From Holosporaceae bacterium (GTDB lineage Bacteria > Pseudomonadota > Alphaproteobacteria > UBA3830), in the NCBI GenBank assembly GCA_031288795.1, contig JAITQS010000011.1:327-64326 (forward strand): a stretch of DNA of 64,000 nt, written 5' to 3'. The number at the start of each line of letters is the position of its first letter. Within the stretch, counting starts at the first letter, position 1. The position numbers and the translations under genes are program-made. Of the stretch, positions 8,515 through 21,696 are shown one piece after another. The notes under the pieces were generated by a model, which was given only the letters and a program-made list of their open reading frames with translations, did not search any database and was not told where the DNA came from.

Positions 8515-8548
8515 TAAAAAACAGCTAAAGCGCAGATTTCAAAAAACT

Positions 8549-9514: not shown

Positions 9515-9990
9515 TTCGCCTCCTATATTTACCAAAATAATATCCACTACATTTATAATATATTATAAATAATAAAGTAAAGTTTTTAATCATTAAACAA
9601 AAAGATAAATTATATTCTAAGCATTACAGCCAAATATTATGAAAATATTTATTGCTGAGTTGAAATTTTTAAGAAAAAAAAAAGATTATCCTGAAGACAG
9701 ATTAAATTATTATGGTCTTCGTGATTTTATGTTCTCAATATTTTTATTATAATCATACTGATAATTATTTGCATATTATGGCACGAAAAGCAACGCGAAT
9801 TAATTTTGTTTTTTATTTAAAATTAAGTTGATTATTTTTTATTTGTAATTTACCCTATGATCCGTTATTGGAGGTTAGGGACAGAAGCGTCCCGAGCATA
9901 CGGAGCCAGTTTCGACAGAAATTAGAGTTCTTGCGAAAAAGTTTTATTGGCGATCGTATGAGGTTTCTAGAAAAATATGGAGAGTGAATT

Positions 9991-10404: not shown

Positions 10405-10406
10405 AA

Positions 10407-10545
10407 GAAACTGCCTAATGAGATTTTTCTTGCAAGAACGAGGAAAAATGTAGCGCAAGACCGCAGTGTACTGCCTGTACATGAGGATCCGAGCAACGAA
10501 TTCGACGAAATCGACGGCGAGAAAAATCCATTAGGCAACAGTCTC
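10407..10545 (+). repeat. palindromic MITE-like element, full-length copy B
   Basis: It starts 3 nt after the phasin stop. It shares the private variant GGAAAAATGTAGCGC with copy C. Confidence 0.85.
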
Positions 10546-10581
10546 ATAATGTAATAGCCTCATATGGTTCATTACATTCAA

Positions 10582-11103
10582 CTATTGGAATTTCCCTTGT
10601 TTTTCTCCAGAAATTATTGGCTGTTTCCCTCGATTAAAACCGCTCTTCCCCAGTTCCTCCTTTATAGGGCAATCCAAATTTTGCGACGTTTCTTCTGAAA
10701 TTTCCGAATTACCGCAGCAATTGCTCCCGGAAGCAACTTGCGCCGCCAAAATTTCAATAATGCTCCGATTATTCACCTTGAATTTATCCAACAATTCCAT
10801 TTTATGTTCCACTATCTTTTTTTCCTGCGCCAACAAAACTGCCTCATGACAACAACAGAGACTTTTAGCCCCCTCACTTTTCAATATAGTTTCCCTATGA
10901 TGGCAACAATGATTCTGGGATAAATCTTTTATTTTATTTTTTAAAATAGCATCTGCAAGATCAGCCTCCAGCTCATTCATAATTCTTTGGATCTCCTCCA
11001 CTTCAGCCGCTTTCGGAATCAAAATGTTCAGCGCCGATGCAGAAATTCCGCCTAAAAATGACGCCAACACAATAATCATAATTTTTTTGCCCAGATTTGC
11101 CAT
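10582..11103 (-). CDS. hypothetical N-terminally anchored protein with Cys/His clusters
   Basis: 173 aa. TM/signal anchor IMIIVLASFLGGISASALNIL, a coiled-coil-like middle, and clusters HCCHH, CCCH and NCCGN. Its ATG directly follows the TAA of the upstream gene (TAAATG). Confidence 0.55.
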   Translation of the reverse strand: MANLGKKIMIIVLASFLGGISASALNILIPKAAEVEEIQRIMNELEADLADAILKNKIKDLSQNHCCHHRETILKSEGAKSLCCCHEAVLLAQEKKIVEHKMELLDKFKVNNRSIIEILAAQVASGSNCCGNSEISEETSQNLDCPIKEELGKSGFNRGKQPIISGEKQGKFQ

Positions 11104-13326
11104 TTAAAATTGCTCACTTGTTAATATATCATCCTCATATTTCGAGATATCTTTCTTCTTTGTTGGGGTGGACGTGCCGGTACCCACACCGCCCCTGCCG
11201 AACGAATCCCATGCTTTTGAGCCTCCTCCGGTGGTCCACACCACATCATTGCCCGCAGACGGTTTGCTTCCCTTGACAACGGCTTTCCCCATCCAATTGG
11301 AATTTGCCCGAGAATCAACCAAAACTGCCGATTGCTCAGTAATTTCAGCTGCAGATTTTTCTTCAGCAGATTTTTTCGCGACGGATGAAACCTGCTTTTT
11401 TTCAGACTCATCTAAAGATTCGCCTTCTAAAAAACCACCGTTATCCGCATCGGAATTATCTTCTTCTACTTTATTATTTTCCGCATTGGAATTGTCTTTT
11501 TCGTTTTTGTTTTCTTTTTTAGCGCCATCTTCGTTGCCGCCTTGATCTTCGGCAGATTTTTCATCATTTTTCTCCTGATCTGATTTTTCGTCGTCCTGGT
11601 CGTCGCCCTCCTGATCTGGTTTTTCGTCGTCCTGGTCGTCGCCTTCCCGATCTGATTTTTCGTCGTCCTGGTCGTCGTCTTCCTGATCTGGTTTTTCGTC
11701 GTCCTGGTCGTCGTCTTCCTGATCTGGTTTTTCGTCGTCCTGGTCGTCGTCTTCCTGATCTGATTTTTCGTCGTCCTGGTCGTCGTCTTCCCGATCTGAT
11801 TTTTCGTCGTCCTGATCGTCGTCTTCCCGATCTGATTTTTCGTCGTCCTGGTCGTCGTCTTCCCGATCTGATTTTTCGCCATCCCGATCGTCGTCTTCCC
11901 GATCTGATTTTTCGCCATCCCGATCGTCGTCTTCCCGATCTGATTTTTCGTCATCCCGATCGTCGTCTTCCCCACTGCTATTGAACCGTTCTCCGCTATC
12001 CTTATCGCGATCTGACCTTCTGTCGTCCCGATCATCCTCCTCCCGATCTGATCTTCTATCATCCCGGTCATCGTCCTCCCGGTCTGACCTTCTGTCGTCC
12101 CGATCGTCGTCTAACCCACTACTATTGAACCGTTCTTCGTTATCGTCCCCTCGATCTGATCTCCTGTCATCCCGATCGTCGTCTGATATGCTAATATTGA
12201 ACTGCGTTTCATCATTGCGATCTCTATCCGATCTTTCATCGCTGTCCTCGTTATTGTCGTATCGATTTTTATCAGATCTACCATTGTCCTCATAGTTGTC
12301 ATCATCTAGTCTTCCGTCGTCATCTCTGATGTCAAAGTGCTCTTCTTCTTTGCGCTGAACCTGCTCTTGAGGTTCCGGAACATTGGAAATATTTTGCACA
12401 TTGTTTTCGTGGGGTATCAACTCGATTTTGGGAGTACTCGCCGGCTCGCTTTTTCCAGCGTTCCCAGATTCAACCGGAGAGATATTCACCGATTCATCTT
12501 CCGCCGTAGCCGACGATTCATCTTCCGCCGTAGCCGACGATTCACCTACCGCCGTAGCCGACGATTCATCTGCTGCCGTAGCCGACGATTCATCTGCTGC
12601 CGTAGCCGGCGATTCATCTGCTGCCGTAGCCGACGATTCATCTACCGCCGTAGCCGACGATTCATCTTCCGCCGTAGCCGACGATTCATCTACCGCCGTA
12701 GCCGACGATTCATCTAGCGCGGTACTTGGCGGTTTATTTTCTTCAACAACTATCTCTTCTTCTTCCCAGTCAGGAGATATTCCAGGAGGGGCTTTTTTTT
12801 CCGGCTGCATTTCCAGCTCCCAGTTTGGATAATTCATCTCCGGAGAGAATTCTCCCCAATTTGGAAATGGCTTTTCGGAAGGCTTAGCTTTTACGGGGAA
12901 TGTATTTAGATCCCAATCCGGATAATTGGGTTTTGAAAAAGCTTCATCTTCCCAGGTCGGTGGATTTTTTTTGGGAGGTCGCTTTCTTCCGAGCGGTATA
13001 TTTAGATCCCAATCCGGATAGTTTGCTTTGGTTTTTTGGGGAAGATTGTCGTTACGTTCATGATCTTCCGGTGGCAATAGCAAAATTTCCTCCAGAAGTT
13101 TTTGATTTTCCACGAACAATCTATTGATTGTTTTTTTTTGCTCGTTGTTGTAGCCGTTGTCGTGGGTTAGATGCAACAGCAAGTTATGTCCGACCAGGGC
13201 GAGTTTATCTTTCGGATGTAGACTGTATATGTCGAAGCTCACTGCAGCGCATGTGGCTCCAATGCTTTTTAGAAGCAAGAATATGACAAAAAATGCGTAG
13301 TGCAACCTAAACCTCGGCTGATACAT
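11104..13326 (-). CDS. hyper-acidic tandem-repeat secreted protein
   Basis: 740 aa. Signal-like N-terminus (FFVIFLLLKSIGATCAAVS). Trp motifs NYPDWDLN (x2), NYPNWELE, FPNWGEF and SPDWEEEE. About 10 copies of DESSATA(V/E/A). Many 12-aa D/E/R/K/S units (DDDRDDRRSDRE, DREDDDQDDEKS). Gly-rich basic C-terminus. Confidence 0.7.
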   Translation of the reverse strand: MYQPRFRLHYAFFVIFLLLKSIGATCAAVSFDIYSLHPKDKLALVGHNLLLHLTHDNGYNNEQKKTINRLFVENQKLLEEILLLPPEDHERNDNLPQKTKANYPDWDLNIPLGRKRPPKKNPPTWEDEAFSKPNYPDWDLNTFPVKAKPSEKPFPNWGEFSPEMNYPNWELEMQPEKKAPPGISPDWEEEEIVVEENKPPSTALDESSATAVDESSATAEDESSATAVDESSATAADESPATAADESSATAADESSATAVGESSATAEDESSATAEDESVNISPVESGNAGKSEPASTPKIELIPHENNVQNISNVPEPQEQVQRKEEEHFDIRDDDGRLDDDNYEDNGRSDKNRYDNNEDSDERSDRDRNDETQFNISISDDDRDDRRSDRGDDNEERFNSSGLDDDRDDRRSDREDDDRDDRRSDREEDDRDDRRSDRDKDSGERFNSSGEDDDRDDEKSDREDDDRDGEKSDREDDDRDGEKSDREDDDQDDEKSDREDDDQDDEKSDREDDDQDDEKSDQEDDDQDDEKPDQEDDDQDDEKPDQEDDDQDDEKSDREGDDQDDEKPDQEGDDQDDEKSDQEKNDEKSAEDQGGNEDGAKKENKNEKDNSNAENNKVEEDNSDADNGGFLEGESLDESEKKQVSSVAKKSAEEKSAAEITEQSAVLVDSRANSNWMGKAVVKGSKPSAGNDVVWTTGGGSKAWDSFGRGGVGTGTSTPTKKKDISKYEDDILTSEQF
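11575..12190. repeat. 36-bp coding tandem repeats
   Basis: Unit CTGATCTGATTTTTCGTCGTCCTGGTCGTCGTCTTC, with 11 near-perfect copies from 11575. More diverged 36-bp units follow up to about 12190. The repeats give open frames in several phases. Confidence 0.85.
12491..12722. repeat. 24-bp coding tandem repeats
   Basis: Unit GATTCATCTTCCGCCGTAGCCGAC, with about 9.5 consecutive copies carrying single-base variants. Confidence 0.9.
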
Positions 13327-13366
13327 CTACGCATTTTAGCAATTGTGTATTAACAAATTATAAAAT

Positions 13367-13849
13367 TTACTGAATTTTTAATTTTTCTAGTATGGTAGAT
13401 GAAATTTTGTCATCTTTATCTTTGCTTCCTCTGGAGGATCCGAATTCGAAGCTGTAGGCATCTTTCAGGCATGCGCCAAAAATTCCCGCTATGGTTGAGA
13501 CAATACCCACAACTTCGCCGGGTAAGTCTCCTTTGTAAGAAATGAGCATCAGCAGACAAAACACCAGTCCGAGCGCGGCTCCGATTACCATTATGTTCAA
13601 CCTTTTGTTGCGATTAAAGGCGTTGATCATGGAAATATGTGAGTTTGTTTTGGCGTCTTCAAAATTTTGAAAGCATTTTTTTTTCGTGGAATCTTGCGAA
13701 ATATTTTTTGGCAATGGGTCGTCATTTTTTTCAAATGATTTGATTGTATCATCATTGTTGTGGTTATTTTTTTGTATTGTTTCCTTTAGGGCTTTTTCTT
13801 TGATGGTGTCAATGGAATCCAACACGATTCTTTCCAGTATATTTTTCAT
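13367..13849 (-). CDS. hypothetical membrane protein, holin-like topology
   Basis: 160 aa. A hydrophilic N-terminal half is followed by two TM segments (LNIMVIGAALGLVFCLLMLISY, VVGIVSTIAGIFGACL) and a charged tail. It starts 9 nt downstream of the SleB-type hydrolase gene. Confidence 0.5.
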   Translation of the reverse strand: MKNILERIVLDSIDTIKEKALKETIQKNNHNNDDTIKSFEKNDDPLPKNISQDSTKKKCFQNFEDAKTNSHISMINAFNRNKRLNIMVIGAALGLVFCLLMLISYKGDLPGEVVGIVSTIAGIFGACLKDAYSFEFGSSRGSKDKDDKISSTILEKLKIQ

Positions 13850-13858
13850 TTTTTTCTC

Positions 13859-14269
13859 CTATTTTTTCAATTCATAAAAGCAATGCGATCCGAATACTCT
13901 TCGGGGATGTAGATGGGCGGCCCAGTGTGGTTTTATGAATTTTTGGTGATAGTGATCGCAGCCATCGGTGAGATCTGGCCATTTTTCCGTTAAAACATTT
14001 TCGGCTGTTTCTCTACATTTTTTAAAAATTGCGTCATTACTTATTTGGGTAACTATTTTGTAGTTGGGATCATTTTTATTCCAGCAGGAAAATTGATATG
14101 GAGCCAAGCAAACATCGTAGATTGTTGGAGCAAAATTTTTATTTTTCCGATTCACTACAACGTTTGCAATTGCCAGAAGAGATGTAATGCCATATATATA
14201 GAATTCTCCTCTTGCTTCTCCATAAATTGTTTTTGCCAATGTATCTAGATCCTGTTTTGTAAATTTCAT
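13859..14269 (-). CDS. SleB-family cell wall hydrolase (endolysin-like)
   Basis: 136 aa. Motifs: TIYGEARGE, IANVVVNR, YQFSCWN, GCDHYH, HCFY. These are characteristic of the Hydrolase_2/SleB family. Confidence 0.85.
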   Translation of the reverse strand: MKFTKQDLDTLAKTIYGEARGEFYIYGITSLLAIANVVVNRKNKNFAPTIYDVCLAPYQFSCWNKNDPNYKIVTQISNDAIFKKCRETAENVLTEKWPDLTDGCDHYHQKFIKPHWAAHLHPRRVFGSHCFYELKK

Positions 14270-14275
14270 TTTACT

Positions 14276-15175
14276 TTATCCTTGTATAAAATTGATGGTG
14301 ATTAAATTTGTATTTTGTGTATGTGTCAATCCGGTACTTTTATAAGGCGTAGAGGTACCGGTAGTTATGTCAGTTAATTTTATTTTACATAGTCCATTTT
14401 TTAGGTCATCGTACAGATTCGTTTTCTGATCTTCCGGGGAGTTTTCTAGACCGACGAATAACGTACCACTTTTCAGTATTTGCTTTGCAAAAGGGTTTAT
14501 TCCTTTGGTCATTAATGTTGTGATCCTACTAACTATTATCGATGTGGTTTTGGCATGCGGAGCCGTTTGGAAAACGCACAATTCTATACTTTTCGGATGT
14601 CCGCCATATTCATAAAATCCGCCGTAGGGATAAATTTTGTATGATGCTTTTTCGGGAGAATTTTTATCATATAAAGGACCACCAAGTGTAGAATTATATT
14701 TTTCCACTATGGGAGTTCGAAGCGTAGGAAAATTTTTTTCAAACAAAATATCATCTTTTTTTTCGAAATCCATAACATAATTATCAAAAGATTTATGGAA
14801 GAAAACGTTTTTTTCATTTTCCAGCAGATACGTGCCGGAGTTTTCAAAAATAACGACAACTTTTGCCCAGAAAGAATGGGGATTTTTCACATCAGAATCC
14901 CCGTGAATTATTGGAGATCCATATATATCATTTTTTCCAAGACTTTTGTCATTTTCTATACGTTCCACCAATATCGGTGATGTAATTTTTATGCCCTCAA
15001 GACGAGCATTTAGCCTAATATTTTCGGGCCAAGTGTCCGCTAATTTTACATGACAATCTCCGGATTCGGTTTCGAGCCAAATCGGCGATTTTATATTTTC
15101 TTCTGTATCCGGAGTATCAGTAAAATCGCGAATATATACGCTGGATATTGATTTTATTCCTCTTGATAAAAACAT
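14276..15175 (-). CDS. hypothetical protein, phage-cluster associated
   Basis: 299-aa intact ORF. AGAGGA Shine-Dalgarno sequence. It lies 15 nt downstream of the 584-aa ORF and 6 nt upstream of the hydrolase. No family recognised. Confidence 0.55.
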   Translation of the reverse strand: MFLSRGIKSISSVYIRDFTDTPDTEENIKSPIWLETESGDCHVKLADTWPENIRLNARLEGIKITSPILVERIENDKSLGKNDIYGSPIIHGDSDVKNPHSFWAKVVVIFENSGTYLLENEKNVFFHKSFDNYVMDFEKKDDILFEKNFPTLRTPIVEKYNSTLGGPLYDKNSPEKASYKIYPYGGFYEYGGHPKSIELCVFQTAPHAKTTSIIVSRITTLMTKGINPFAKQILKSGTLFVGLENSPEDQKTNLYDDLKNGLCKIKLTDITTGTSTPYKSTGLTHTQNTNLITINFIQG

Positions 15176-15190
15176 AATTTTCCTCTTTAT

Positions 15191-16945
15191 TTATACTAAA
15201 AAATCGGGGATAGGATGATTTTTCCTAATGGCCTTTGTGGTGCTTAGCGGATGTAGAACTACCTTTATTTTTGTGGGATATCTTCTTAATTCGGCCTTTA
15301 GTTCTGCTACGCTTTTTGCTCTAATTTTTGCCAGCTGCGCCTCCTGTTCTTCCGGAGAATTCTCAACCGAAATTTTGGTTACTATATCCTGAGAATTTAT
15401 TTTTTCCTCTTCGTTATTAATGGACAATTTTTGAAAATATTCGTTTATTTTTTCAGTAGAAATTTCCGCGAATCCACCTAGATTGCAGCAAATCGTAATG
15501 TTAAAAATTCGGTGATTGCAATCGGCGAAAAAGGCAGTTTTCGTGACTTTTCCCGAGATAGATCCACCGGAAAATCTGTCGTCAATTACGGTAATTTGAT
15601 CATTTAGAGTTACATTTATAAAATTTTTGGCATAGACATTAAAATTAAGCTCCACATATCGTGACGAGTATTTTATAAGTGCGATTGCCTTCTGGACCGC
15701 ATAGCGAATTGCATTTTTTCCGCGATCCGTAGCGAAAAAAGAAGATGCCGTTTCGTCCGGTAGCGCATCTGGTATTTTTTCCAGTAATCGCCATTTTTTT
15801 TCGTCGAATTTATCTTCCGCCACATGGGCCGCTAGACACTCGAAAATTTGTCCAGAATGAAGTACTTTTTCGCCGCGATTATAATCCCAAAAGCTGTGCC
15901 ATTTTCGCTGCGCTTTTGGCAATTGCAGTGGACCGAGTTTCAAATTAATATTTTTTTCTCGGCCACCATTAGATTTCGTATTTATAACTTTTATTGTTAT
16001 ATTCTCGTTTATTTTTTGTTTATGATGCCAATTTACAAGTATTTGCCCTTTGAAATAAAATTTTTTAAACCTCACAAACTTTTGGGGAGATATTTCATTT
16101 TTTTCAATAGCATACTCTGCAGACACCGGCGAAAAATTTTGAAAAAAGTGCCTGTTTTGGGTCGGATAAATTTCTTTTATTTTACTGCTTATTAGCTCAT
16201 ATCCGGTATTTTTGGAAAATTTGCAAAAATTTTCCATTGCTGTTCCGATGTTAGTATAAGAAGACACCACGGAATTTTTGAAATTGCTAGCAATCAGCGG
16301 ATATAAATTAATGCATCCGTAGGCATGCCGCAGCCAACTGGTTTCGATGCTTATGCTTATGCTTTTGTAGGGTTCCCGAAATAACCGCACTTTTAGAGAG
16401 TTTTGCATAATGTCACATTTTTTGATTTCAAAATTTTTTGCGCCATGATTGATGTCCGATAGCGACAATTTTCCATTTGTCATGTCCCAATAGAAAATTT
16501 TACAATCTCCCTCCAAAAAAACCGTTGGATTATTCATATCTTTAGTTGAAAAAAATAAATCGTCAAAAATAATCGGATGATCCGACAGTTTATGCTTATC
16601 GATATTTTTGTATTGTTCGTAATTTAGTTGGCAGAAGTTGTTCAATTGGTTTTGATAATCTTCCGGTTCGGAAATAAATTCCAATTTCAGACAAGAGTTT
16701 CCAAATCCGATGGGAAAAGATACCAATCTTCCGGAAAAAATTATTTCCACATTTTGGTCATCTTTTTGAACAGCGATTTTGGCATATTTTTTAGTTACCA
16801 ATGGTTCGGTTGTAGTCACAACGACTTTTGCCGAGGCAAATCCACATTCTCTATGAACGATTTCCAGAGATATTATTTTTGCATCGCCGCGCCAAGATTT
16901 TTTTTCTTCGTGAAAAGAAAAACACCAATCAAATATCAATTTCAT
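15191..16945 (-). CDS. hypothetical large protein, candidate tail/host-recognition component
   Basis: 584-aa intact ORF. GGAGA Shine-Dalgarno sequence. Internal motif KWHSFWDYNRGEKVLHSGQIFECLAAHVAEDKFDEKKW resembles small carbohydrate-binding (CBM5/12-like) modules found in phage tail proteins. Otherwise unrecognised. Confidence 0.55.
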   Translation of the reverse strand: MKLIFDWCFSFHEEKKSWRGDAKIISLEIVHRECGFASAKVVVTTTEPLVTKKYAKIAVQKDDQNVEIIFSGRLVSFPIGFGNSCLKLEFISEPEDYQNQLNNFCQLNYEQYKNIDKHKLSDHPIIFDDLFFSTKDMNNPTVFLEGDCKIFYWDMTNGKLSLSDINHGAKNFEIKKCDIMQNSLKVRLFREPYKSISISIETSWLRHAYGCINLYPLIASNFKNSVVSSYTNIGTAMENFCKFSKNTGYELISSKIKEIYPTQNRHFFQNFSPVSAEYAIEKNEISPQKFVRFKKFYFKGQILVNWHHKQKINENITIKVINTKSNGGREKNINLKLGPLQLPKAQRKWHSFWDYNRGEKVLHSGQIFECLAAHVAEDKFDEKKWRLLEKIPDALPDETASSFFATDRGKNAIRYAVQKAIALIKYSSRYVELNFNVYAKNFINVTLNDQITVIDDRFSGGSISGKVTKTAFFADCNHRIFNITICCNLGGFAEISTEKINEYFQKLSINNEEEKINSQDIVTKISVENSPEEQEAQLAKIRAKSVAELKAELRRYPTKIKVVLHPLSTTKAIRKNHPIPDFLV

Positions 16946-16998
16946 CTTTTATTCTCCGTAAAAAAAATGTAGTATACGCCCACATAAAATGGTGATTT

Positions 16999-17895
16999 AT
17001 GTCTATTGCGTTCAACAAAAATTATTATCGCGCTATTTTCTTTTTATTGCTCATGATGTTGATTAGCTGCCTCAACGATGTCATAGCAAAATTTATTGGA
17101 AAGCGACTTGATTCTGTAGAAGTTATTTTCTTTAGATTTTTTTTCAGTTTCATAACTCTTTTACCATTTGTGGTTGTGCGCGGCGCGGCAATTTTCCAAA
17201 CGTCCAATTGGCGACTTAATGTTCTAAGGGGGATTTTTGGCGCCCTTAGTTTTTACCTCTATACCCATTCGCTGATGCGAATACACCTAGTTGAAATCGT
17301 GACAATTATGTGGACGATACCTTTATTTGTCGTTGTTCTTTCAATATTTTTTTTGAAAGAGCAAGTGAATATTATCAGGTGGATCTCCACACTGGTGGGT
17401 TTTTTCGGGCTCGCATTCATAATGTTATATGACAGCGGATCGTCATTTTCTTTCAAATTTGTATATATAATTCCGATTGCATCAGCGTTTCTTTTCGCAC
17501 TTCAGGACGTAATGGTAAAAAAAATGCTGGACACAGATGACCGCATTACCATGCTTTTGTATTTTGCCATTATAAGTAGCCTTCTAACATTTATTCCTGC
17601 GATTTTCGTCTGGAAAACTCCCACACTATTCGAATTATCCCTGCTATTATTGCTGGGATTTTTCGCCAACCTCATGCAATTTTTTATTTTCCGCGCGTTC
17701 GAAGCGGTAGATTTATCGGCGTTGGCTCCGTTCAGATACATAGAATTTTTATTATCCGCCTTTGTGGGGTTTATCTTTTTTAGAGAAATCGCCGGATTAA
17801 ATGTTCTAATTGGGGGCATAATTCTAGTTCCAAGCACATTATATTTGGCCTACAGCGAAAGAAGTGCCTCCCGTAAACGAGAGCGCAAAAAATAG
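16999..17895 (+). CDS. EamA/DMT-family transporter
   Basis: 298 aa with about 10 TM segments in two EamA-like halves. It is on the opposite strand inside the phage-like cluster. Confidence 0.8.
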   Translation: MSIAFNKNYYRAIFFLLLMMLISCLNDVIAKFIGKRLDSVEVIFFRFFFSFITLLPFVVVRGAAIFQTSNWRLNVLRGIFGALSFYLYTHSLMRIHLVEIVTIMWTIPLFVVVLSIFFLKEQVNIIRWISTLVGFFGLAFIMLYDSGSSFSFKFVYIIPIASAFLFALQDVMVKKMLDTDDRITMLLYFAIISSLLTFIPAIFVWKTPTLFELSLLLLLGFFANLMQFFIFRAFEAVDLSALAPFRYIEFLLSAFVGFIFFREIAGLNVLIGGIILVPSTLYLAYSERSASRKRERKK

Positions 17896-17902
17896 CATCA
17901 TC

Positions 17903-18499
17903 TTATACTTCTTCCAGAACAATTTTCCAGCTGCCATTCATGTTCCATTCGTTGGTTTCGAAGGAAAAGTCCACCACCGTCATGATTAACCACGGGCGAA
18001 AACTAACAAATATTTTTTCATTGTATTTTTTTAAAAGTTCCACTTCATTGCTGCCGTCATTAAAATTAAATTTTATGGAATCTCCGGCGGTATTGAGAAC
18101 ATTTATGGAGTCCTTAACAACCGGTCTTATGAGTCGTATTTTTTGTTGTCCCGCTTCAATGGATTGCCATAAATTTTGTATACATCCTACATTGATTTGG
18201 GATCCAATCCAAATGCTGTCTATGATCGGAAAATTTACGTCTCGACAAGATATGATACTTTTATATTTTTTATTTTCGGAAGCTTTTAAAAATAATAAAT
18301 CGCCGTTTAGGGATTTTTTGAATTCTCCGTTAGGAATGGGATGTAGTTCCTGAGTACAGTTTCGTGCACTTTCCGGAGGCAATCCTACAATACCAAGTAT
18401 TAAATTTGTTTCATTCATTTTAGTCCATCCATTCGGGCATTGTTGTTGGGGTCGTTCGGGAGACATATTCCAGATATTCGGCCAATTTATCCATTGCAT
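17903..18499 (-). CDS. hypothetical protein following the neck genes
   Basis: 198-aa intact ORF, 38 nt downstream of the terminator-like ORF. It sits where a major tail protein would be expected, but no tail-family motif is recognised. Confidence 0.5.
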   Translation of the reverse strand: MQWINWPNIWNMSPERPQQQCPNGWTKMNETNLILGIVGLPPESARNCTQELHPIPNGEFKKSLNGDLLFLKASENKKYKSIISCRDVNFPIIDSIWIGSQINVGCIQNLWQSIEAGQQKIRLIRPVVKDSINVLNTAGDSIKFNFNDGSNEVELLKKYNEKIFVSFRPWLIMTVVDFSFETNEWNMNGSWKIVLEEV

Positions 18500-18537
18500 T
18501 TTCTTCTTCTGAATTCATATTTTGTATAATTGCAGTA

Positions 18538-18930
18538 TTAGTCATCGCTTTCTCCATCTTCATATATAGCTTTCAATTTTAGTATGGCAATCATATTCAA
18601 TAGGAGCAAATTTTTTCGACTCTCGATGGAATCAATTTTTATTTTTGCGGATCCTATGGCGACATTTCCTTGGCTTAGCGTCAATTCCTGGGCGGTTATT
18701 TTGCTAATGGATTTCATAATTTTCATACTTTCCGAAGTTACACATTTGTCGTCCACGATACTTACGACGAATTCCACCCGAGACATTAAATTTTTTCCAT
18801 GAATAATATTTTTTAATTCGAATATTAGATACGGTGTTTTGCGAAGTTCGTCGGGCGGAGTTGACGGAAATATTGCTGCGCTCAATTCTTTTTTTATGGC
18901 ATTTATGATGCCAAAATCCCAAGGTAGCAT
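18538..18930 (-). CDS. tail-terminator-like protein (DUF3168/RcGTA g8-like), tentative
   Basis: 130 aa. Assigned from its position after the adaptor, its size and its N-terminal pattern (...IFPSTPPDELRKTPYLIFEL...). It starts 2 nt after the upstream stop. Confidence 0.45.
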   Translation of the reverse strand: MLPWDFGIINAIKKELSAAIFPSTPPDELRKTPYLIFELKNIIHGKNLMSRVEFVVSIVDDKCVTSESMKIMKSISKITAQELTLSQGNVAIGSAKIKIDSIESRKNLLLLNMIAILKLKAIYEDGESDD

Positions 18931-18932
18931 TT

Positions 18933-19235
18933 TTATTCTCCTTTTGTTATTTGTGCCGCATGAAACATAATGTAGTCGTTGGATGGATCCACAATGGGAA
19001 TTTGAGTAGGCATAAAATTTTTATCATCCATTGTAATTCTAAAATTGTTGGGAAAGTATTTTCTCCATTTTATAATAAAAAAGTATATGACTCTTCTGAC
19101 GGAAACATATTTTATGGAAGCTGAAGCCCACAATTCATTCCAGAGAATATATTCCGGAATCCAAACATTGTCGCTGGACAATTTTTGTTTAATAATTTCT
19201 ATTTTTATTTTTTTATTAAATAATTTTTTTGACAT
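18933..19235 (-). CDS. head-tail adaptor / head closure protein (RcGTA g7-like), tentative
   Basis: 100 aa. The pattern KIKIEI...W.P...LW...WASASIKY...Y.F.I.WR...RI is typical of SPP1/HK97-type head-tail joining proteins. Confidence 0.5.
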   Translation of the reverse strand: MSKKLFNKKIKIEIIKQKLSSDNVWIPEYILWNELWASASIKYVSVRRVIYFFIIKWRKYFPNNFRITMDDKNFMPTQIPIVDPSNDYIMFHAAQITKGE

Positions 19236-19245
19236 TTTTTTTCTC

Positions 19246-19848
19246 CTAAAAAACTCTCAGATTCAGAAATGGAGCAAGCAACTTCCGTACCCCACTGGAC
19301 ACAATGTCGCCGTCCAAACAAGAATATCTTTCTTGGTAGGCGCTAGCCATCATCATCAAATTCGCCAATTTTACGGGATACGGAATATTATCTGCATTCA
19401 GCACGATACCCGCTTCGTAAAGGATGGATATAATCTTCGATTTACTACGCTGCAATGATTTATCCAACGTAAGCAGTAAATAAAATTTCGATTTAGTTTT
19501 ATCTAAAACGTAGCATTGTTTTTCCACATCCGTTTCATTTACCGATACTTTTAAAATTTTTATGATGGGTGGTTTTGGCAATGGAATTTGCAAACTATTT
19601 CCTCTAACCATACATGGATAATTATCGTTGGGAGCGGCCACAATGCGAACATTGTCACTATGTATCGTATATTTCCATGTCTGCCGCGGCAGCGTTTTTT
19701 GTATAATAGCTTCAATTGCTTCGCGCGTAGATTTGATGAGCATTAATATAAGATCATCATCAAAATTATGGTCGATGTGAAGATAATTTTTTGCTTCTTT
19801 CAACGAAATTATTTCGCTTTTGGGACCTTCGACCAGACATAAATCCAT
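19246..19848 (-). CDS. gp6-like head-tail connector protein
   Basis: 200 aa. The N-terminal ISLKEAKNYLHIDHNFDDDLILMLIKSTREAIE is the classic gp6/Phage_connect_1 signature. Confidence 0.7.
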   Translation of the reverse strand: MDLCLVEGPKSEIISLKEAKNYLHIDHNFDDDLILMLIKSTREAIEAIIQKTLPRQTWKYTIHSDNVRIVAAPNDNYPCMVRGNSLQIPLPKPPIIKILKVSVNETDVEKQCYVLDKTKSKFYLLLTLDKSLQRSKSKIISILYEAGIVLNADNIPYPVKLANLMMMASAYQERYSCLDGDIVSSGVRKLLAPFLNLRVF

Positions 19849-19930: not shown

Positions 19931-21058
19931 CTAGTTGGCGGAAAATTTCAAAAGTTTTATGGCATCGAAGTCCACGACGGCGCCTCCGGTACGTTTGGTA
20001 GCATAAAATTCCACAAACGGCTTGGATGTATATGGATCCCGCAATATTTTTAATCCCTGCCTATCAATAATTTGGTATCCGGAATAAAAATCTCCAAATG
20101 CAATGGAAACGGACGCTTTTCCATTCACAAGGTTTGGCATATCATCGTCAATTACCACTGGATATCCCAGCAACATTGATGGAGTACATTCCGCCAGCGA
20201 TGGTTGCCACAAGCATATGCCATCTGAACTTTTTAATTTTCTAATTGCCGCAAGAGCAGAACGAGACATTAACCATTTGGCGTTTTTCACGTAGATTGGT
20301 TTCAGCGAACAAGTCATGTTCAGCAGAATATCCAGGGGATTATTGTCGTCCGAAAATTGTCCATCGGCGCCGCTGCAGAAGTGCTGCAATTTTCCAAATT
20401 CTCTGGTGGAAGATGCTTCGGAAGTGTAATCCAGGAATCCTTTTGGTTTATTGCTGCCGTTTCCATTTATGAAGGCGTGATTTTCGAGAGCGGCGATTTT
20501 TTCTGCAATTTTATTTATGAGCCATTCTTCGACATTTATCTGGGCGTCGTCCAGGAGCTGCTGACTTGCTTTCGGTTTTGCATAAATTTCGTAAACGGGA
20601 ATTTTAATTTTTTGTATTTCCGGAGAGTCGGTTTCGTCTCGGGAGGCGGACGTCTCGGACGCCCAGCCGGCTCCCGGACTTTTAGAATTCACCAACATAT
20701 CCATGGAATTTGTCGATATGGTAGTGGTTTTAGCAACGGACCGCATTGGTGACAAAAATTTTAATCTATTTCCTATTTGCGTTGCGATTTTTATTGGCAC
20801 AAAGTGTCCGCCTTCGTCTCCATTTACGCCGTTTAGCGATTTTTTTGCAAATGATCCGATTCCTTTGCGAATATAATCGGAAAAATCACATTTTTGATCG
20901 CAGTTGTTTTCTAAATTTTCTGATAGTGGTAAAGACATATTTTTTTCTCCTTTTATCATTTTTGTTTTTGGTGCATTTAATTCTTTTTCGTTATTTTCCA
21001 ATAGGGCTTCGACGTTATGATTTAATTCTTCGATGGCGTTTTGAAAATCTATGTTCAT
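19931..21058 (-). CDS. HK97-family major capsid protein
   Basis: 375 aa. A coiled N-terminal delta-like region is followed by GGHFVPIKIATQI, GAGWASE, LLDDAQINVEEWL, ENHAFINGNGSNKPKGFL. Confidence 0.85.
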   Translation of the reverse strand: MNIDFQNAIEELNHNVEALLENNEKELNAPKTKMIKGEKNMSLPLSENLENNCDQKCDFSDYIRKGIGSFAKKSLNGVNGDEGGHFVPIKIATQIGNRLKFLSPMRSVAKTTTISTNSMDMLVNSKSPGAGWASETSASRDETDSPEIQKIKIPVYEIYAKPKASQQLLDDAQINVEEWLINKIAEKIAALENHAFINGNGSNKPKGFLDYTSEASSTREFGKLQHFCSGADGQFSDDNNPLDILLNMTCSLKPIYVKNAKWLMSRSALAAIRKLKSSDGICLWQPSLAECTPSMLLGYPVVIDDDMPNLVNGKASVSIAFGDFYSGYQIIDRQGLKILRDPYTSKPFVEFYATKRTGGAVVDFDAIKLLKFSAN

Positions 21059-21696
21059 GATATTTTTCCTTTCGTGGCGTGATTTATTTTTTGGGAGATA
21101 TTTTTTATGAGTTCTAGGTATTTTTGCATGTTATCCTCGGCGGGGACGCAATTTGCTTTTATGTCGCTAACAACGGCTTTTTCGCAGGCCGGAAACGTCA
21201 CAATAGACACTTCCAGCAATTCGATGTTTGTCAGATGATGCACGTTGTTGTCGAAATATTCGTCCTTAATTTTATAGCCGATAGAAAATCCGTCGAGGGC
21301 TTTATTTTTTAGTAGGGCGTAGACTTCTTTTGCTTTTGGAATTTCAAACAGCAGTCGCGCTTTTATAAAAAGACCGTAATCGTCTTCGTGGATGTCTGTT
21401 ATGACTCCGATGGGAAAATTTCCATCATGTTGCCAGAGTAGTTTCGGTTTTTTTCCGTTTTTGAATTCGCGAATAGCGTTTGCGAATGCTCCTTTTTCGA
21501 CGCTGTCGCCGTATCCGTCGATTACTCGAAAAACACTGGCATAGCCGGAGATTTCTCCATTTTCCTCCAGGGATTTTAAGAGACAGTTGCCCTGTGGATC
21601 TTTTCTACCATTAGCTTCATTGGATGGTATATGGGGGGTTAAAAATTTCATACTATTGGTTCCTATTTTTATTCCTATTTTTGTATTTCTATTCAT
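21055..21696 (-). CDS. HK97-family prohead protease
   Basis: 213 aa. Motifs: GYASVFRVIDGYGDSVEKGAFANAI, LLWQHD, GFSIGYK, LLEVSIVTFPACEKA. It has 4-nt overlaps with both neighbours. Confidence 0.85.
   Translation of the reverse strand: MNRNTKIGIKIGTNSMKFLTPHIPSNEANGRKDPQGNCLLKSLEENGEISGYASVFRVIDGYGDSVEKGAFANAIREFKNGKKPKLLWQHDGNFPIGVITDIHEDDYGLFIKARLLFEIPKAKEVYALLKNKALDGFSIGYKIKDEYFDNNVHHLTNIELLEVSIVTFPACEKAVVSDIKANCVPAEDNMQKYLELIKNISQKINHATKGKIS

What the first reader, a model, noticed from the sequence alone, without database searches (positions are those of the whole stretch)
10582..16945. Six tightly packed minus-strand genes with almost no recognisable families: candidate novel phage-derived delivery/lysis module
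Six ORFs run head to tail with gaps of only 15, 6, 9, 40 and 0 nt:
- 15191-16945 (584 aa)
- 14276-15175 (299 aa)
- 13859-14269 (SleB-type hydrolase)
- 13367-13849 (2-TM protein)
- 11104-13326 (740-aa acidic repeat protein)
- 10582-11103 (Cys-rich anchor)

The layout suggests one transcription unit starting at the divergent region shared with the EamA gene. The array sits where an RcGTA-type or siphovirus cluster would carry tail tube, chaperones, tape measure, distal tail, hub, peptidase and host-specificity genes. Only the hydrolase is recognisable. The two large ORFs and the 198-aa ORF at 17903-18499 match nothing I can name. All are intact in a gene-dense genome.

The combination is a head-neck module, unknown structural-size proteins, a lysis-type pair and an exported hyper-acidic repeat protein. 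I do not know it as a described system.
Basis: partly seen in the sequence, partly recalled or inferred. Interest (0 to 1): 0.75.

Follow-up and report, generated by a model that had tools for sequence, protein, structure and literature searches.

The report
Hidden tail end of endosymbiont GTA
Four of the six genes are the previously undetected tail-tip and cell-wall-lysis half of a domesticated virus-like particle (gene transfer agent) that Holosporaceae endosymbionts were thought to keep only as a tail-less head. The other two genes are fast-evolving, lineage-specific add-ons.

Summary
Only four of them form a conserved unit:
- a 584-aa protein
- a 299-aa protein
- a SleB-type hydrolase
- a small membrane protein

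This unit, always preceded by a divergently oriented EamA gene, recurs in all 35 related Holosporaceae/alphaproteobacterial MAG loci with upstream sequence. It usually lies directly downstream of portal, protease, capsid, adaptor and neck genes.

- **Head genes:** capsid and portal are RcGTA-type (PDB best hits Rcc01687 at 2e-76 and Rcc01684 at 6e-69).
- **584-aa protein:** it models confidently (pLDDT 86) as a gp27 / Mu gp44 / VgrG-Afp8-like baseplate hub with an inserted CBM5/12 glycan-binding motif.
- **299-aa protein:** it models confidently but matches no fold in PDB or BFVD.
- **Selection:** every gene is under purifying selection (dN/dS 0.05-0.20).
- **The other two genes:** the acidic repeat protein occurs only in the closest relatives and the Cys-rich protein in none of the loci. 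Neither belongs to the module.

The published view (George et al. 2022) is that Holosporaceae GTAs lack detectable tails. This locus shows a non-RcGTA-type tail tip plus a lysis pair, with no tube or tape-measure gene. I rate it a new variant of a known kind, of moderate interest.

The parts
21693..22838 (-). Portal protein (RcGTA g3 type)
   Evidence: Pfam Phage_portal at 7e-75. The best PDB sequence hit is the RcGTA portal Rcc01684 at 5.6e-69, against 5.5e-18 for the next portal.
21055..21696 (-). Prohead serine protease (g4 type)
   Evidence: Pfam Peptidase_S78 at 4e-30.
19931..21058 (-). HK97-fold major capsid protein (g5 type)
   Evidence: Pfam Phage_capsid at 2.5e-79. The best PDB hit is the RcGTA capsid Rcc01687 at 1.8e-76 over the full length.
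19246..19848 (-). Head-tail adaptor (g6 type)
   Evidence: NCBIfam TIGR02215 scores 56 bits against a cut-off of 39. Also phrog_442 head-tail adaptor at 1e-13 and Pfam Phage_connect_1.
18933..19235 (-). 100-aa neck protein, probably head-closure/stopper (g7-like); weak evidence
   Evidence: A profile of 26 orthologues hits PDB 2kz4 'putative head-tail adaptor' at only E = 0.11. Orthologues in L042 and L046 carry weak PF05521 Phage_HCP hits. Position is conserved in all loci.
18538..18930 (-). 130-aa neck protein, possibly tail terminator/completion (g8-like); weak evidence
   Evidence: 2 of 25 orthologues give weak PF11367 Tail_completion_gp17 hits (best E = 0.022). dN/dS is 0.05.
18420..18545 (-). 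Conserved ~41-aa acidic ORF, function unknown
   Evidence: It translates to ...LAEYLEYVSRTTPTTMPEWMD*. The same small ORF ends immediately before the start of the 170-aa gene in L001, L005, L008, L010, L021 and L022.
17903..18415 (-). 170-aa protein of unknown fold, the most conserved unknown in the cluster. Inferred to be the ring (Dit / tube-initiator-like or tube) between neck and hub.
   Evidence: 130 homologues, nearly all 164-178 aa, all unnamed and without a Pfam domain. It has three invariant Cys. There are no PDB, Pfam or phage hits, and the only PHROG hit is phrog_21344 (unknown function) at E = 0.007. dN/dS is 0.09. The function is inferred from position only.
16999..17895 (+). EamA/DMT transporter gene embedded on the opposite strand, a conserved neighbour of the hub gene
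   Evidence: Pfam EamA at 1.4e-26. It lies next to the hub gene in all 35 loci with upstream sequence, including relatives with only 24% hub identity.
16946..16998 (.). 53-bp divergent intergenic region, the presumed promoter region of the tail module
   Evidence: The spacer is typically 48-60 bp across loci. A recurrent TACAAyATT-like box lies about 10-25 nt upstream of the hub RBS. A promoter function is inferred.
15191..16945 (-). Baseplate hub protein (gp27 / Mu gp44 / VgrG-Afp8-like fold) with an inserted CBM5/12-like glycan-binding motif at residues ~346-382
   Evidence: AF2 model with pLDDT 86 and pTM 0.78. Foldseek against PDB gives 52 hits at E<=1e-3; the 50 listed are all tail-tip/baseplate hub or spike assemblies. 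They include 7aef_q eCIS spike (1.7e-11), 6j0m_A PVC, Mu gp44 (1wru, 3cdd, 9ki1_G), pyocin R2 hub, T6SS VgrG, T4 gp27 and siphophage tips. CBM_5_12 hits are. A profile finds 1,627 related proteins. dN/dS is 0.12.
14276..15175 (-). 299-aa all-beta protein of orphan fold. Inferred to be a peripheral tail-tip or receptor-binding component.
   Evidence: AF2 model with pLDDT 85 (residues 50-299 above 90). No fold match in PDB (best E = 0.13) or BFVD (best E = 0.044). It follows the hub in 34 loci, directly in all but three (L012, L014, L017). dN/dS is 0.20.
13859..14269 (-). SleB/CwlJ-type peptidoglycan hydrolase (catalytic domain only, no signal peptide)
   Evidence: Pfam Hydrolase_2 at 6e-16 and phrog_938 endolysin at 3e-19. 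It is 57-89% identical across loci. In distant loci L046 and L047, Phage_lysozyme PF00959 replaces it (in the same slot in L047).
13367..13849 (-). Small membrane protein with a variable N-terminus and an ultra-conserved C-terminal two-helix hairpin plus charged tail; inferred holin-like partner of the hydrolase
   Evidence: The alignment of 27 orthologues conserves RNKRLNIMVIGAALGL...GIFGACLKDAYSFEFGSSRGSKDKD. Also phrog_1544 at 4e-5. dN/dS is 0.10.
11104..13326 (-). 740-aa secreted-looking acidic tandem-repeat protein; a lineage-specific neighbour, not part of the conserved module
   Evidence: It occurs only in L005 (38% identity while its neighbours are 80-92%) and as a fragment in L006. 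Tandem arrays of 36 nt and 24 nt.
10582..11103 (-). 173-aa Cys-rich protein with an N-terminal hydrophobic segment; strain-specific, no homologue in any related locus
   Evidence: No tblastn hit in the 43 related loci. It was found only on a contig from the same sample. No family hit.

Best explanation
The window carries a chromosomal, domesticated RcGTA-type gene transfer agent (GTA) cluster of a Holosporaceae endosymbiont. The finding covers its second half.

Genes 15191-16945, 14276-15175, 13859-14269 and 13367-13849 form a separately transcribed tail-tip and lysis module:
- a trimeric gp27/gp44/VgrG-like hub carrying a CBM5/12 glycan-binding insertion
- an orphan-fold 299-aa protein that probably decorates the hub (adhesin or tip)
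- a SleB-type peptidoglycan hydrolase
- a holin-like two-helix membrane protein

The head operon lies upstream. It runs portal, protease, capsid, g6 adaptor, ~100-aa g7-like, ~130-aa g8-like, tiny ORF, 170-aa protein.

Proposed mechanism (inferred). The neck proteins and the 170-aa ring dock the hub directly. This gives a very short tail with no tube and no tape measure. The CBM5/12 modules bind a surface glycan. The hydrolase and membrane protein open the producer's wall for release, and possibly the target's wall as well.

The tail tip is not the lambda-like g12-g15 set of RcGTA. It is either a non-orthologous replacement or diverged beyond recognition.

The acidic repeat protein and the Cys-rich protein are unrelated, fast-evolving, lineage-specific genes, probably surface or host-interaction proteins, that happen to lie downstream.

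Shown: gene order, conservation, purifying selection, RcGTA-type head, hub fold, hydrolase domain. Inferred: assembly of the hub onto the neck, the short tail, the holin role, and what is packaged and delivered.
For: **Head genes.** Capsid and portal are RcGTA-type. Their best PDB hits are Rcc01687 (1.8e-76) and Rcc01684 (5.6e-69). The adaptor passes the TIGR02215 cut-off.

**Hub.** The fold assignment rests on a confident model and 52 Foldseek hits at E<=1e-3; the 50 listed are all tail-tip/baseplate hub or spike assemblies.

**Synteny.** The order portal...170-aa / EamA(-) / hub / ~300-aa / PG hydrolase / TM protein is conserved in loci L001-L043 and L047, down to 24% hub identity. Flanking genes are unrelated from locus to locus.

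**Selection.** dN/dS is 0.05-0.20 for all 12 genes at unsaturated dS of 0.38-0.78.

**The hydrolase slot.**
- The hydrolase is replaced by a T4-type Phage_lysozyme in L046 and L047, in the same slot in L047.
- That lysozyme sits next to a multi-TM holin-like protein.
- The TM protein in L042 and L043 keeps an extra N-terminal hydrophobic helix resembling those proteins.

**Context.**
- There is no integrase, terminase, sheath, tube or tape-measure family in the cluster or among the ORFs of the window that were scanned. Flanks are housekeeping genes.
- George et al. 2022 independently identified the head half as a GTA in Holosporaceae. They predicted that divergent tail genes might lie downstream of the adaptor.
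Against: - The 170-aa, 130-aa and 100-aa proteins have no significant matches, so the physical link between neck and hub is inferred from gene order only.
- The hub module is on its own transcription unit. In five loci (L011, L016, L018, L029, L040) no head genes lie within the 3.5-9 kb of available upstream sequence, so it could act independently.
- No tube, chaperone or tape-measure gene was found, which is unusual for a hub-bearing tail. They could be elsewhere in the genome, and only a 64-kb window was seen.
- No terminase is present in the window.
- Foldseek query-normalised TM-scores are modest (0.3-0.35; 0.5-0.58 when normalised to gp44-size targets), because this is a multi-domain model.
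- George et al. saw no particles in more than 850 endosymbiont cells by TEM.
- The holin assignment rests on topology and context, not on a family match.
Confidence: 0.68

Rival explanations
1. The EamA-linked hub module (hub, 299-aa protein, hydrolase, TM protein) is an autonomous phage-tail-derived device that does not assemble on the GTA capsid. It might be an envelope-anchored spike/adhesin and peptidoglycan-remodelling complex, co-regulated with the EamA transporter and used in symbiont-host or envelope biology.
For: - It is a separate transcription unit, divergent from EamA across a conserved 48-60-bp spacer.
- The EamA-hub linkage is unbroken in all 35 loci. The head-EamA linkage is broken by 1-3.4-kb inserts in six loci. 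In five loci head genes are absent from the 3.5-9 kb of available upstream sequence.
- No tube or tape-measure genes were found.
- The hub's best structural matches are eCIS and T6SS spikes.
Against: - In most loci, including the most distant ones, the module directly follows the neck genes.
- gp27-like hubs are only known as caps of a tube or ring (established knowledge of tail assembly).
- No sheath, tube, gp25/gp6 wedge or ATPase genes lie nearby.
- The hydrolase lacks an export signal.
- Split GTA loci are normal in Rickettsiales and for RcGTA accessory genes.
Confidence: 0.15
2. The hydrolase is a virion-associated wall-penetrating enzyme, the functional analogue of the RcGTA g14 peptidase. 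On this reading it is not an endolysin, and the 160-aa membrane protein is not a holin. That protein would instead be an assembly, anchoring or immunity factor, and release would use other genes.
For: - The hydrolase sits where RcGTA carries g14, right after the hub genes (gene order; the RcGTA order is from established knowledge).
- The RcGTA lysis genes lie outside the head-tail cluster (established knowledge).
- The membrane hairpin is far more conserved (about 80% identity) than holins usually are.
Against: - The best PHROG match is to endolysins.
- In L046 and L047 it is replaced by a T4-type lysozyme adjacent to a multi-TM holin-like gene, a classical lysis cassette.
- The protein is a bare catalytic domain with no docking domain.
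- The two roles are not mutually exclusive.
Confidence: 0.3
3. The region is a decaying prophage remnant with no present function. The six-gene array is only leftover open reading frames.
For: - There is no terminase, tube or tape measure in the window.
- GC content of 14-20 kb is 0.35-0.36, against about 0.43 for the window.
- Sequence searches find no named families.
Against: - All genes are intact, and gene order is largely conserved across dozens of genomes down to 24% identity.
- dN/dS is 0.05-0.20.
- Both modelled proteins fold confidently.
- Gene lengths are strikingly uniform, for example 169-171 aa in most of about 130 homologues.
Confidence: 0.03

Closest known systems
Holosporaceae / Rickettsiales 'small-cluster' GTAs (George et al. 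2022, Genome Biol Evol, PMC9254644)
   Same: - Same host group.
- Same syntenic portal, protease, capsid and adaptor cluster.
- The terminase is not adjacent.
- Genes are under purifying selection.
- The window's head genes are this element.
   Different: That work reports Holosporaceae clusters as head/portal complexes with tail components missing or undetected. Here the downstream unknown genes resolve into a hub-fold protein, an orphan-fold partner, a peptidoglycan hydrolase and a holin-like protein. They are conserved with an embedded EamA gene.
RcGTA head-tail cluster of Rhodobacter capsulatus (g1-g15; structures 6TBA, 6TE9 and related, Bardy et al. 2020)
   Same: - Capsid and portal are by far the closest solved relatives.
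- The g6 family matches.
- The general order head, neck, tail tip, wall hydrolase is the same.
- It is chromosomal and non-mobile.
   Different: - No g9 tube, g10 chaperones or g11 tape measure.
- No family match to g12, g13, g14 or g15.
- The tip is a single-chain gp27/gp44-like hub rather than the lambda-like M/L/K/J-type set (the RcGTA architecture is from established knowledge).
- The wall enzyme is SleB-type, not NlpC/P60.
- A transporter gene is embedded on the opposite strand.
Baseplate hub / central spike proteins: phage Mu gp44, T4 gp27, R-pyocin hub, eCIS Afp8/Pvc8, T6SS VgrG, siphophage Tal
   Same: The predicted fold of the 584-aa protein matches these at Foldseek probability 1.0, with E down to 1.7e-11.
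   Different: - No sequence-family membership.
- No long C-terminal beta-helical needle in the model's secondary structure.
- A CBM5/12-like insertion.
- No sheath, wedge or tube genes alongside.
Phage endolysin-holin cassettes (SleB-type Hydrolase_2 endolysins, phrog_938)
   Same: - A signal-less catalytic-domain hydrolase is followed by a small protein with two TM helices and a charged C-terminus.
- The slot is filled by lysozyme plus a multi-TM protein in distant relatives.
   Different: - The membrane protein matches no curated holin family.
- It is unusually conserved.
- The pair sits inside a tail module rather than a separate lysis module.

Membership tests
RcGTA-type gene transfer agent (head-tail cluster) | HK97-type portal, S78 prohead protease and major capsid protein most similar to RcGTA g3-g5 | tested here: met
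   Pfam hits at 7e-75, 4e-30 and 2.5e-79. The best solved relatives are RcGTA Rcc01684 (5.6e-69) and Rcc01687 (1.8e-76), tens of orders of magnitude better than any phage.
RcGTA-type gene transfer agent (head-tail cluster) | g6 adaptor (TIGR02215) plus g7 stopper and g8 terminator neck proteins | tested here: inconclusive
   g6 is met: TIGR02215 scores 56 bits against a cut-off of 39. For the g7-like and g8-like proteins there are only weak hits: 2kz4 at E = 0.11, PF05521 weak, and PF11367 in 2 of 25 orthologues at E = 0.022.
RcGTA-type gene transfer agent (head-tail cluster) | Tail tube (g9), chaperones (g10, g10.1) and tape measure (g11) | tested here: not met
   Between the g8-like gene and the hub there are only a ~41-aa ORF, the 170-aa gene and EamA. 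No tube, chaperone or tape-measure family hit appears in the cluster or in the scanned ORFs of the window. These genes could lie elsewhere in the genome.
RcGTA-type gene transfer agent (head-tail cluster) | Lambda-like tail tip g12-g15 (TIGR02217, TIGR02218 / DUF2163+BR0599, NlpC/P60 TIGR02219, Phage-tail_3 megatron) | tested here: not met
   None of these families hits the 170-, 584-, 299- or 136-aa proteins or 10 distant hub homologues. Profiles give no RcGTA chain in PDB. No RcGTA chain is among the top 50 fold matches.
RcGTA-type gene transfer agent (head-tail cluster) | Chromosomal and non-autonomous (no integrase, replication or lysogeny genes), inherited with the host lineage | tested here: met
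   Housekeeping flanks and no mobility genes in the window. The module is conserved across Holosporaceae MAGs with different flanks. The dS of the embedded EamA is similar to that of the GTA genes. Strict vertical inheritance was not tested phylogenetically.
RcGTA-type gene transfer agent (head-tail cluster) | Particles package random host DNA and deliver it to recipient cells | not testable with these tools
   Needs particle purification and sequencing. George et al. saw transcripts but no particles.
gp27 / Mu gp44 / VgrG-type baseplate hub | Hub fold (tube-like beta-barrel domains plus alpha/beta domains) | tested here: met
   AF2 model with pLDDT 86 and pTM 0.78. Foldseek hits to Mu gp44, MuSo2 43-kDa protein, pyocin R2 hub, T4 gp27, eCIS Afp8/Pvc8-type spikes and VgrG, at E from 1.7e-11 to 1e-5 and probability 1.0.
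gp27 / Mu gp44 / VgrG-type baseplate hub | Sequence-family membership (Pfam/NCBIfam/PHROG hub, VgrG or Phage_GPD-type models) | tested here: not met
   No family hit except a sub-threshold CBM_5_12 motif.
gp27 / Mu gp44 / VgrG-type baseplate hub | C-terminal gp5-like beta-helical needle, usually capped by PAAR (for VgrG/Afp8 proper) | tested here: not met
   The model's C-terminal 160 residues are mixed short strands and helices, not a long beta-helix. A DUF4280 PAAR-like gene exists at 56519-56905 but is unlinked and is not near the hub in other loci.
Extracellular contractile injection system / T6SS | Sheath, inner tube, gp25/gp6/gp7 wedge and AAA+ ATPase genes in the locus | tested here: not met
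   None appear among the cluster genes or the other window ORFs scanned.
Endolysin-holin lysis cassette | Peptidoglycan hydrolase domain without an export signal | tested here: met
   Hydrolase_2 at 6e-16 and phrog_938 endolysin at 3e-19. The N-terminus MKFTKQDLDTLAKTIYGEARGE has no hydrophobic leader (by inspection).
Endolysin-holin lysis cassette | Adjacent small protein with TM helices and a charged C-terminus that belongs to a holin family and forms lethal membrane lesions | tested here: inconclusive
   The topology fits. The only family hits are PHROGs of unknown function, and there is no curated holin family hit. Context in L046 and L047 supports a lysis slot. Activity is not testable here.

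The most novel reading that the evidence does not exclude
Holosporaceae and related endosymbionts build a new architectural class of GTA-like particle. It combines an RcGTA-type head and neck joined directly to a gp44/VgrG-like hub, with no tube and no tape measure. The hub carries CBM5/12 glycan-binding modules and an orphan-fold 299-aa tip protein. The divergently transcribed EamA transporter gene is an integral regulatory or functional part of the system, kept next to the hub gene across the whole clade. Such a stub-tailed particle may have been retargeted from sister bacteria to another surface, such as host or co-symbiont glycans. That would answer the open question of why clonal endosymbionts keep GTAs.
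Probability: 0.2. Interest if true: 0.8.

Novelty: new variant of a known kind. Interest (0 to 1): 0.55.

Why it matters
The literature treats Holosporaceae GTAs as tail-less heads and asks whether they are functional, reduced to storage capsids, or repurposed (George et al. 2022).

This analysis shows that a conserved hub-type tail tip, a wall hydrolase and a holin-like gene travel with the head genes under purifying selection. That makes a DNA- or cargo-delivering particle much more plausible. It also supplies concrete candidate tail proteins for proteomics, cryo-EM and multimer modelling.

Three further points follow:
- The tail tip is not the RcGTA type, which implies module replacement during GTA evolution.
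- The 299-aa protein has an orphan fold, and the 170-aa family remains unassigned (no sequence-level match; not modelled).
- A transporter gene is persistently embedded in the cluster, without explanation.

Tried and rejected
**Sequence searches that found nothing.**
- Pfam, PHROGs and NCBIfam on the 584-, 299-, 198/170-, 130-, 100-, 740- and 173-aa proteins gave nothing above threshold. The same held for scans of every alignment member.
- tblastn of the hub and the 170-aa protein against 50,697 phage records gave no match.
- Profile searches against PDB sequences for the 170-aa and 130-aa families gave no hits. The 100-aa family gave only a marginal adaptor hit.
- The hub profile hit only the CBM5/12 motif. 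The 299-aa profile hit nothing.
- hhalign of the 170-aa profile against the hub and the 130-aa profiles found no relation.

**Structure search.** Foldseek of the 299-aa model against PDB and BFVD found no match.

**Regulation.**
- Promoter and terminator scans gave counts equal to shuffles, so they are uninformative.
- The TACAAyATT box is not enriched in the window.

**Ideas rejected or left open.**
- The DUF4280 PAAR-like gene as a partner of the hub was rejected. It is unlinked here, absent near hubs elsewhere, and the hub model has no beta-helix tip.
- A reading as eCIS or T6SS was rejected for lack of sheath, tube, wedge and ATPase genes.
- Flank synteny as a test of vertical inheritance failed. 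The window's flanking genes are not next to the cluster in any related locus fetched; even in the closest (86%) relative none lies in the ~4 kb upstream of the portal gene. That leaves mobility versus genome rearrangement unresolved.

Full report
**1. Observation**

The six minus-strand ORFs exist at exactly the coordinates given, and the gaps of 15, 6, 9, 40 and 0 nt follow from them.

Family searches bear out the phrase 'almost no recognisable families':
- Among the six ORFs of the finding, only the 136-aa protein reaches a curated threshold. It hits Pfam Hydrolase_2 at 6e-16 and phrog_938 endolysin at 3e-19.
- The 584-aa protein shows a sub-threshold CBM_5_12 motif at residues 349-378.
- The 160-aa protein hits two PHROGs of unknown function.
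- The 299-, 740-, 173-, 130- and 100-aa proteins hit nothing significant; the 198-aa ORF has only a marginal PHROG match (E = 0.01).

One correction concerns the 198-aa ORF at 17903-18499, which is over-extended. Its homologues are 169-171 aa, and the conserved start is the ATG at 18415. The sequence in front of it encodes, in another frame, a conserved ~41-aa acidic ORF at 18420-18545 (…LAEYLEYVSRTTPTTMPEWMD*). That ORF overlaps the end of the 130-aa gene by 8 nt, the same geometry as in relative L001.

**2. Organism and setting**

The 584-aa protein is identical to a hypothetical protein of a Holosporaceae MAG (LBT70_00835, on a 67-kb contig).

Upstream on the same strand lie:

| Coordinates | Gene | Evidence |
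|---|---|---|
| 21693-22838 | portal | Pfam |
| 21055-21696 | S78 prohead protease | Pfam |
| 19931-21058 | HK97-type capsid | Pfam |
| 19246-19848 | adaptor | passes the TIGR02215 cut-off |

Against all PDB sequences, the capsid's best hit is the RcGTA capsid Rcc01687 (1.8e-76, full length). The portal's best hit is the RcGTA portal Rcc01684 (5.6e-69). Both are tens of orders of magnitude better than any phage protein.

Everything else scanned in the window is housekeeping: GAPDH, transketolase, RuvX, PrmA, RecA, BipA, MutS, FeoB, RecJ, ThrS and Lnt. There is no integrase and no terminase. The element is therefore a chromosomal RcGTA-type head cluster without adjacent mobility genes.

**3. 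What is conserved**

Homologues of the 584-aa protein were found as follows:
- 78 in the word-indexed search, all full length, at 38-86% identity.
- 1,627 at E<=1e-3 in the exhaustive profile search.

All named hits are 'hypothetical' proteins from Holosporaceae, Holosporales or alphaproteobacterial MAGs. MAG names and record titles suggest termite-gut and ruminant (rumen/gut) sources.

Across the 43 related loci first compared (L001-L043), tblastn of every cluster protein shows a fixed order. The order is portal, protease, capsid, adaptor, ~100 aa, ~125-130 aa, tiny ORF(s), ~170 aa, EamA on the opposite strand, hub, ~290-305 aa, Hydrolase_2, TM protein. The called genes agree. This order holds even in relatives whose hub is only 24% identical (L042, L043) or 23% identical (L047).

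Flanking genes differ between loci. The window's own flanking genes are not next to the cluster in any of the related loci fetched, including the 86%-identical relative L005.

Linkage strength differs along the cluster:
- EamA-hub is never broken in the 35 loci that have upstream sequence.
- The head block is separated from EamA by 1-3.4-kb inserts in six loci.
- In five loci the head block is absent from the 3.5-9 kb of available upstream sequence.
- In three loci (L012, L014, L017) something is inserted between the hub and the ~300-aa gene.

The 740-aa acidic protein is found only in L005, and as a fragment in L006. In L005 it has the same architecture but only 38% identity, while its neighbours are 80-92% identical. 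The 173-aa Cys-rich protein has no counterpart in any of the 43 related loci. Hence four of the six genes form an old conserved module and two are recent additions.

**4. Selection**

Nei-Gojobori estimates against L005 (dS 0.38-0.78, unsaturated) give the following dN/dS values:

| Gene | dN/dS |
|---|---|
| hub | 0.12 |
| 299-aa | 0.20 |
| hydrolase | 0.14 |
| TM protein | 0.10 |
| 170-aa | 0.09 |
| 130-aa | 0.05 |
| 100-aa | 0.20 |
| portal, protease, capsid, adaptor | 0.12-0.20 |
| EamA | 0.13 |

The unknown genes are as constrained as the head genes.

**5. What the unknown proteins are**

*The 584-aa protein.*
- It was modelled with a 42-sequence alignment at pLDDT 86.1 and pTM 0.78.
- Foldseek against PDB returned 52 hits at E<=1e-3; the 50 listed are all tail-tip or baseplate hub/spike assemblies:
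  - eCIS spikes: 7aef_q at 1.7e-11, 6j0m_A, 7b5h_AJ, 9qgm_8A
  - Mu gp44 and homologues: 1wru, 3cdd, 3d37, 9ki1_G, with target-normalised TM 0.52-0.58
  - the pyocin R2 hub
  - T6SS VgrG
  - T4 gp27
  - siphophage tips: 80alpha, Bxb1, T5
- No RcGTA chain appears in the top 50.
- The secondary structure of the model's C-terminal 160 residues is mixed, not a beta-helical needle.
- At sequence level the only detectable element is a CBM5/12 chitin-binding-type motif at residues 346-382. It matches, for example, chitinase A1 ChBD 1ed7 at 0.014 and chitin deacetylase CBMs at 0.007-0.011. The motif recurs in distant homologues.

*The 299-aa protein.* It was modelled at pLDDT 85, with residues 50-299 above 90 and an all-beta structure. 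It has no match in PDB (best E = 0.13) or BFVD (best E = 0.044).

*The neck proteins.*
- The 100-aa family weakly resembles head-closure and adaptor proteins. It hits 2kz4 at E = 0.11, and orthologues carry weak PF05521 hits.
- The 130-aa family weakly resembles PF11367 tail-completion proteins, in 2 of 25 members.

*The 170-aa family.* It has 130 members, most of them 169-171 aa. They are about 60-69% identical in lineages where the hub is only 45-50% identical, and three Cys are invariant. It matches nothing significant in any library; its only hit is phrog_21344 (unknown function) at E = 0.007.

**6. Hydrolase and membrane protein**

The hydrolase is a bare catalytic domain without a leader peptide.

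The downstream protein has a variable N-terminal part and an extremely conserved C-terminal hairpin of two hydrophobic helices. The hairpin is followed by AYSFEFGSSRGSKDKD.

Three observations from distant loci bear on the role of this pair:
- In L046 and L047 Hydrolase_2 is replaced by Phage_lysozyme (PF00959), in L047 in the same slot after the hub and the ~300-aa gene.
- In both loci that lysozyme is preceded by a multi-TM protein with a holin-like layout.
- The L042 and L043 orthologues of the 160-aa protein keep an additional N-terminal hydrophobic helix resembling those proteins.

This non-orthologous replacement implies that the slot needs a peptidoglycan-cleaving enzyme paired with a membrane protein, that is, a lysis-type cassette. 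A virion-associated entry role, as for RcGTA g14, cannot be excluded.

**7. Transcription**

EamA (+) is convergent with the 170-aa gene, with 7 nt between their stops. It is divergent from the hub gene, with 53 nt between their starts. The head-neck genes and the hub module must therefore be separate transcription units.

The EamA-hub spacer is typically 48-60 bp across loci. It carries a recurrent TACAAyATT-like box upstream of the hub ribosome-binding site. I read this as a -10-like promoter element, which is an inference. Generic promoter and terminator scans are at background level.

**8. Comparison with the literature**

George et al. 2022 (PMC9254644) described exactly this kind of cluster in Holosporaceae and Rickettsiales endosymbionts. 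They concluded that Holosporaceae retain GTA head/portal complexes 'with missing tail components'.

Their other relevant points:
- The terminase is not adjacent.
- They found purifying selection and transcripts, but no particles by TEM.
- They raised the possibility of repurposing.

Two further full-text searches found no later work assigning tail genes in Holosporaceae.

**9. Best explanation**

The four conserved genes are the tail-tip and lysis module of the Holosporaceae RcGTA-type element. They comprise a gp27/gp44/VgrG-like hub with a glycan-binding insertion, an orphan-fold partner, a SleB-type hydrolase and a holin-like protein.

The cluster has no tube, chaperone or tape-measure gene. 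Its neck genes are followed only by a tiny ORF and the 170-aa gene. The simplest structural model is a stub tail in which a ring of the 170-aa protein joins the terminator-like neck to the hub. This model is inferred.

The tip is architecturally different from the lambda-like g12-g15 tip of RcGTA (family tests not met). This points to module replacement, or to divergence beyond recognition.

Confidence that the four genes are the GTA's tail and lysis half is about 0.68. Confidence in the stub-tail detail is lower.

**10. Rivals**

| Rival | Confidence |
|---|---|
| Autonomous EamA-linked hub device that does not assemble on the capsid | 0.15 |
| Hydrolase acts in entry rather than release | 0.30 (a sub-question, not exclusive of the main explanation) |
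| Dead prophage remnant | 0.03 |

**11. The two non-module genes**

- The 740-aa protein has a hydrophobic N-terminal leader, NYPDW-type repeats and long acidic arrays. The arrays are encoded by near-perfect 36-nt and 24-nt tandem repeats. It diverges far faster than its neighbours.
- The 173-aa protein has an N-terminal hydrophobic segment and CC/CCC/CCHH clusters.

Both look like fast-evolving surface or secreted proteins of an endosymbiont. Their functions are unknown, and nothing ties them to the particle except adjacency.

**12. Verdict**

This is a new variant of a known kind, of moderate interest (0.55).

Its value lies in four things:
- It converts the 'tail-less' Holosporaceae GTA into a testable tailed particle.
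- It reveals one orphan-fold protein (299 aa) and one family (170 aa) with no detectable sequence relatives.
- It shows a tail tip that is not the RcGTA type.
- It flags the conserved embedded EamA gene, which remains unexplained.

Noticed in passing
window 16999-17895 (+); L001-L043, L047: An EamA/DMT transporter gene sits on the opposite strand between the 170-aa gene and the hub gene. The arrangement holds in every related locus with upstream sequence, down to 24% hub identity. The EamA-hub junction is never broken, even where the head genes have moved away. No explanation was found. It could reflect a shared bidirectional promoter, a functional link, or mere constraint on a 50-bp spacer.
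   Followed up: partly
window 18420-18545 (-) and 17903-18499 (-): The '198-aa ORF' is an over-extension. The real gene is 170 aa and starts at 18415. A conserved ~41-aa acidic ORF (…LAEYLEYVSRTTPTTMPEWMD) precedes it in another frame and overlaps the 130-aa gene's end by 8 nt. Its role is unknown. A remnant chaperone or a mini tape measure is pure speculation.
   Followed up: partly
window 56519-56905 (-) and 56906-57478 (-): A 128-aa DUF4280 (PAAR-like spike-tip domain, 1.5e-21) gene directly follows a 190-aa protein with faint MORN-repeat (PF02493/PF07661) hits. It lies 40 kb from the hub gene. No T6SS or eCIS genes were seen in the window, and no DUF4280 lies near hubs in other loci.
   Followed up: partly
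L046 (ENA ERZ4224321 NODE_71), 1-16300: A distant relative has a scrambled cluster. Its order is capsid, 170-like, EamA(-), adaptor, HCP, 133 aa, EamA(-), DUF1016, terminase-C fragment, holin-like, lysozyme, 161 aa, EamA(-), protease, hub, portal. Three EamA genes, one orthologue and two paralogues 49% identical to each other, each precede a block of GTA genes.
   Followed up: partly
L046 7081-7973; L047 8921-9951: In these distant loci Hydrolase_2 is replaced by a T4-type Phage_lysozyme (in L047 in the same slot after the hub and ~300-aa genes), preceded by a multi-TM holin-like protein (…WVDAL.G.VRP…FWFGQRAL).
   Followed up: partly
L042 12864-13295; L043 13527-14051: Extra 143-174-aa genes lie between the ~300-aa gene and the hydrolase. 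They start with a tail-fibre-like motif (MTI.YR..KGAPL.AAE.D.NF) and contain a CBM5/12-like W…Y…GD…Y.C…H motif. This suggests small fibre or adhesin proteins that are absent from the window.
   Followed up: no
window 11573-12184 and 12490-12724: Near-perfect tandem DNA repeats lie inside the acidic protein gene: 36 nt x 11 copies at 95% and 24 nt x 9.8 copies at 93%. The orthologue in L005 has different repeat units, so the arrays turn over rapidly.
   Followed up: partly
window 3387-3980 (+), 7011-8327 (+), 48243-50711 (-): Three signalling genes lie in the same window as the GTA cluster: a weak HPTransfase (ChpT-like) hit at 7e-4, a HisKA/HATPase kinase, and an 822-aa PAS-HisKA-HATPase kinase (CckA-like layout). 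The CckA-ChpT-CtrA relay controls RcGTA (established knowledge). No regulatory link was tested.
   Followed up: no
window 14001-20000: The neck and tail-tip genes have GC of 0.35-0.36, against about 0.40-0.48 for most of the window. The head genes and the acidic repeat gene are near 0.40-0.44.
   Followed up: no
window 17903-18415 (-): The 170-aa family has three invariant cysteines (C20, C57, C78) in a protein assembled in the cytoplasm. This hints at a metal or Fe-S site.
   Followed up: no
window 33645-34505 (+): A second EamA-family gene lies next to recA. It is only 22% identical to the cluster-linked EamA.
   Followed up: partly
L012 11737-20201; L014 and L017 between hub and ~300-aa gene: Insertions of 8.4 kb (L012) and about 1.1-1.4 kb (L014, L017) separate the hub from the ~300-aa gene in some relatives. 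Their content was not examined.
   Followed up: no
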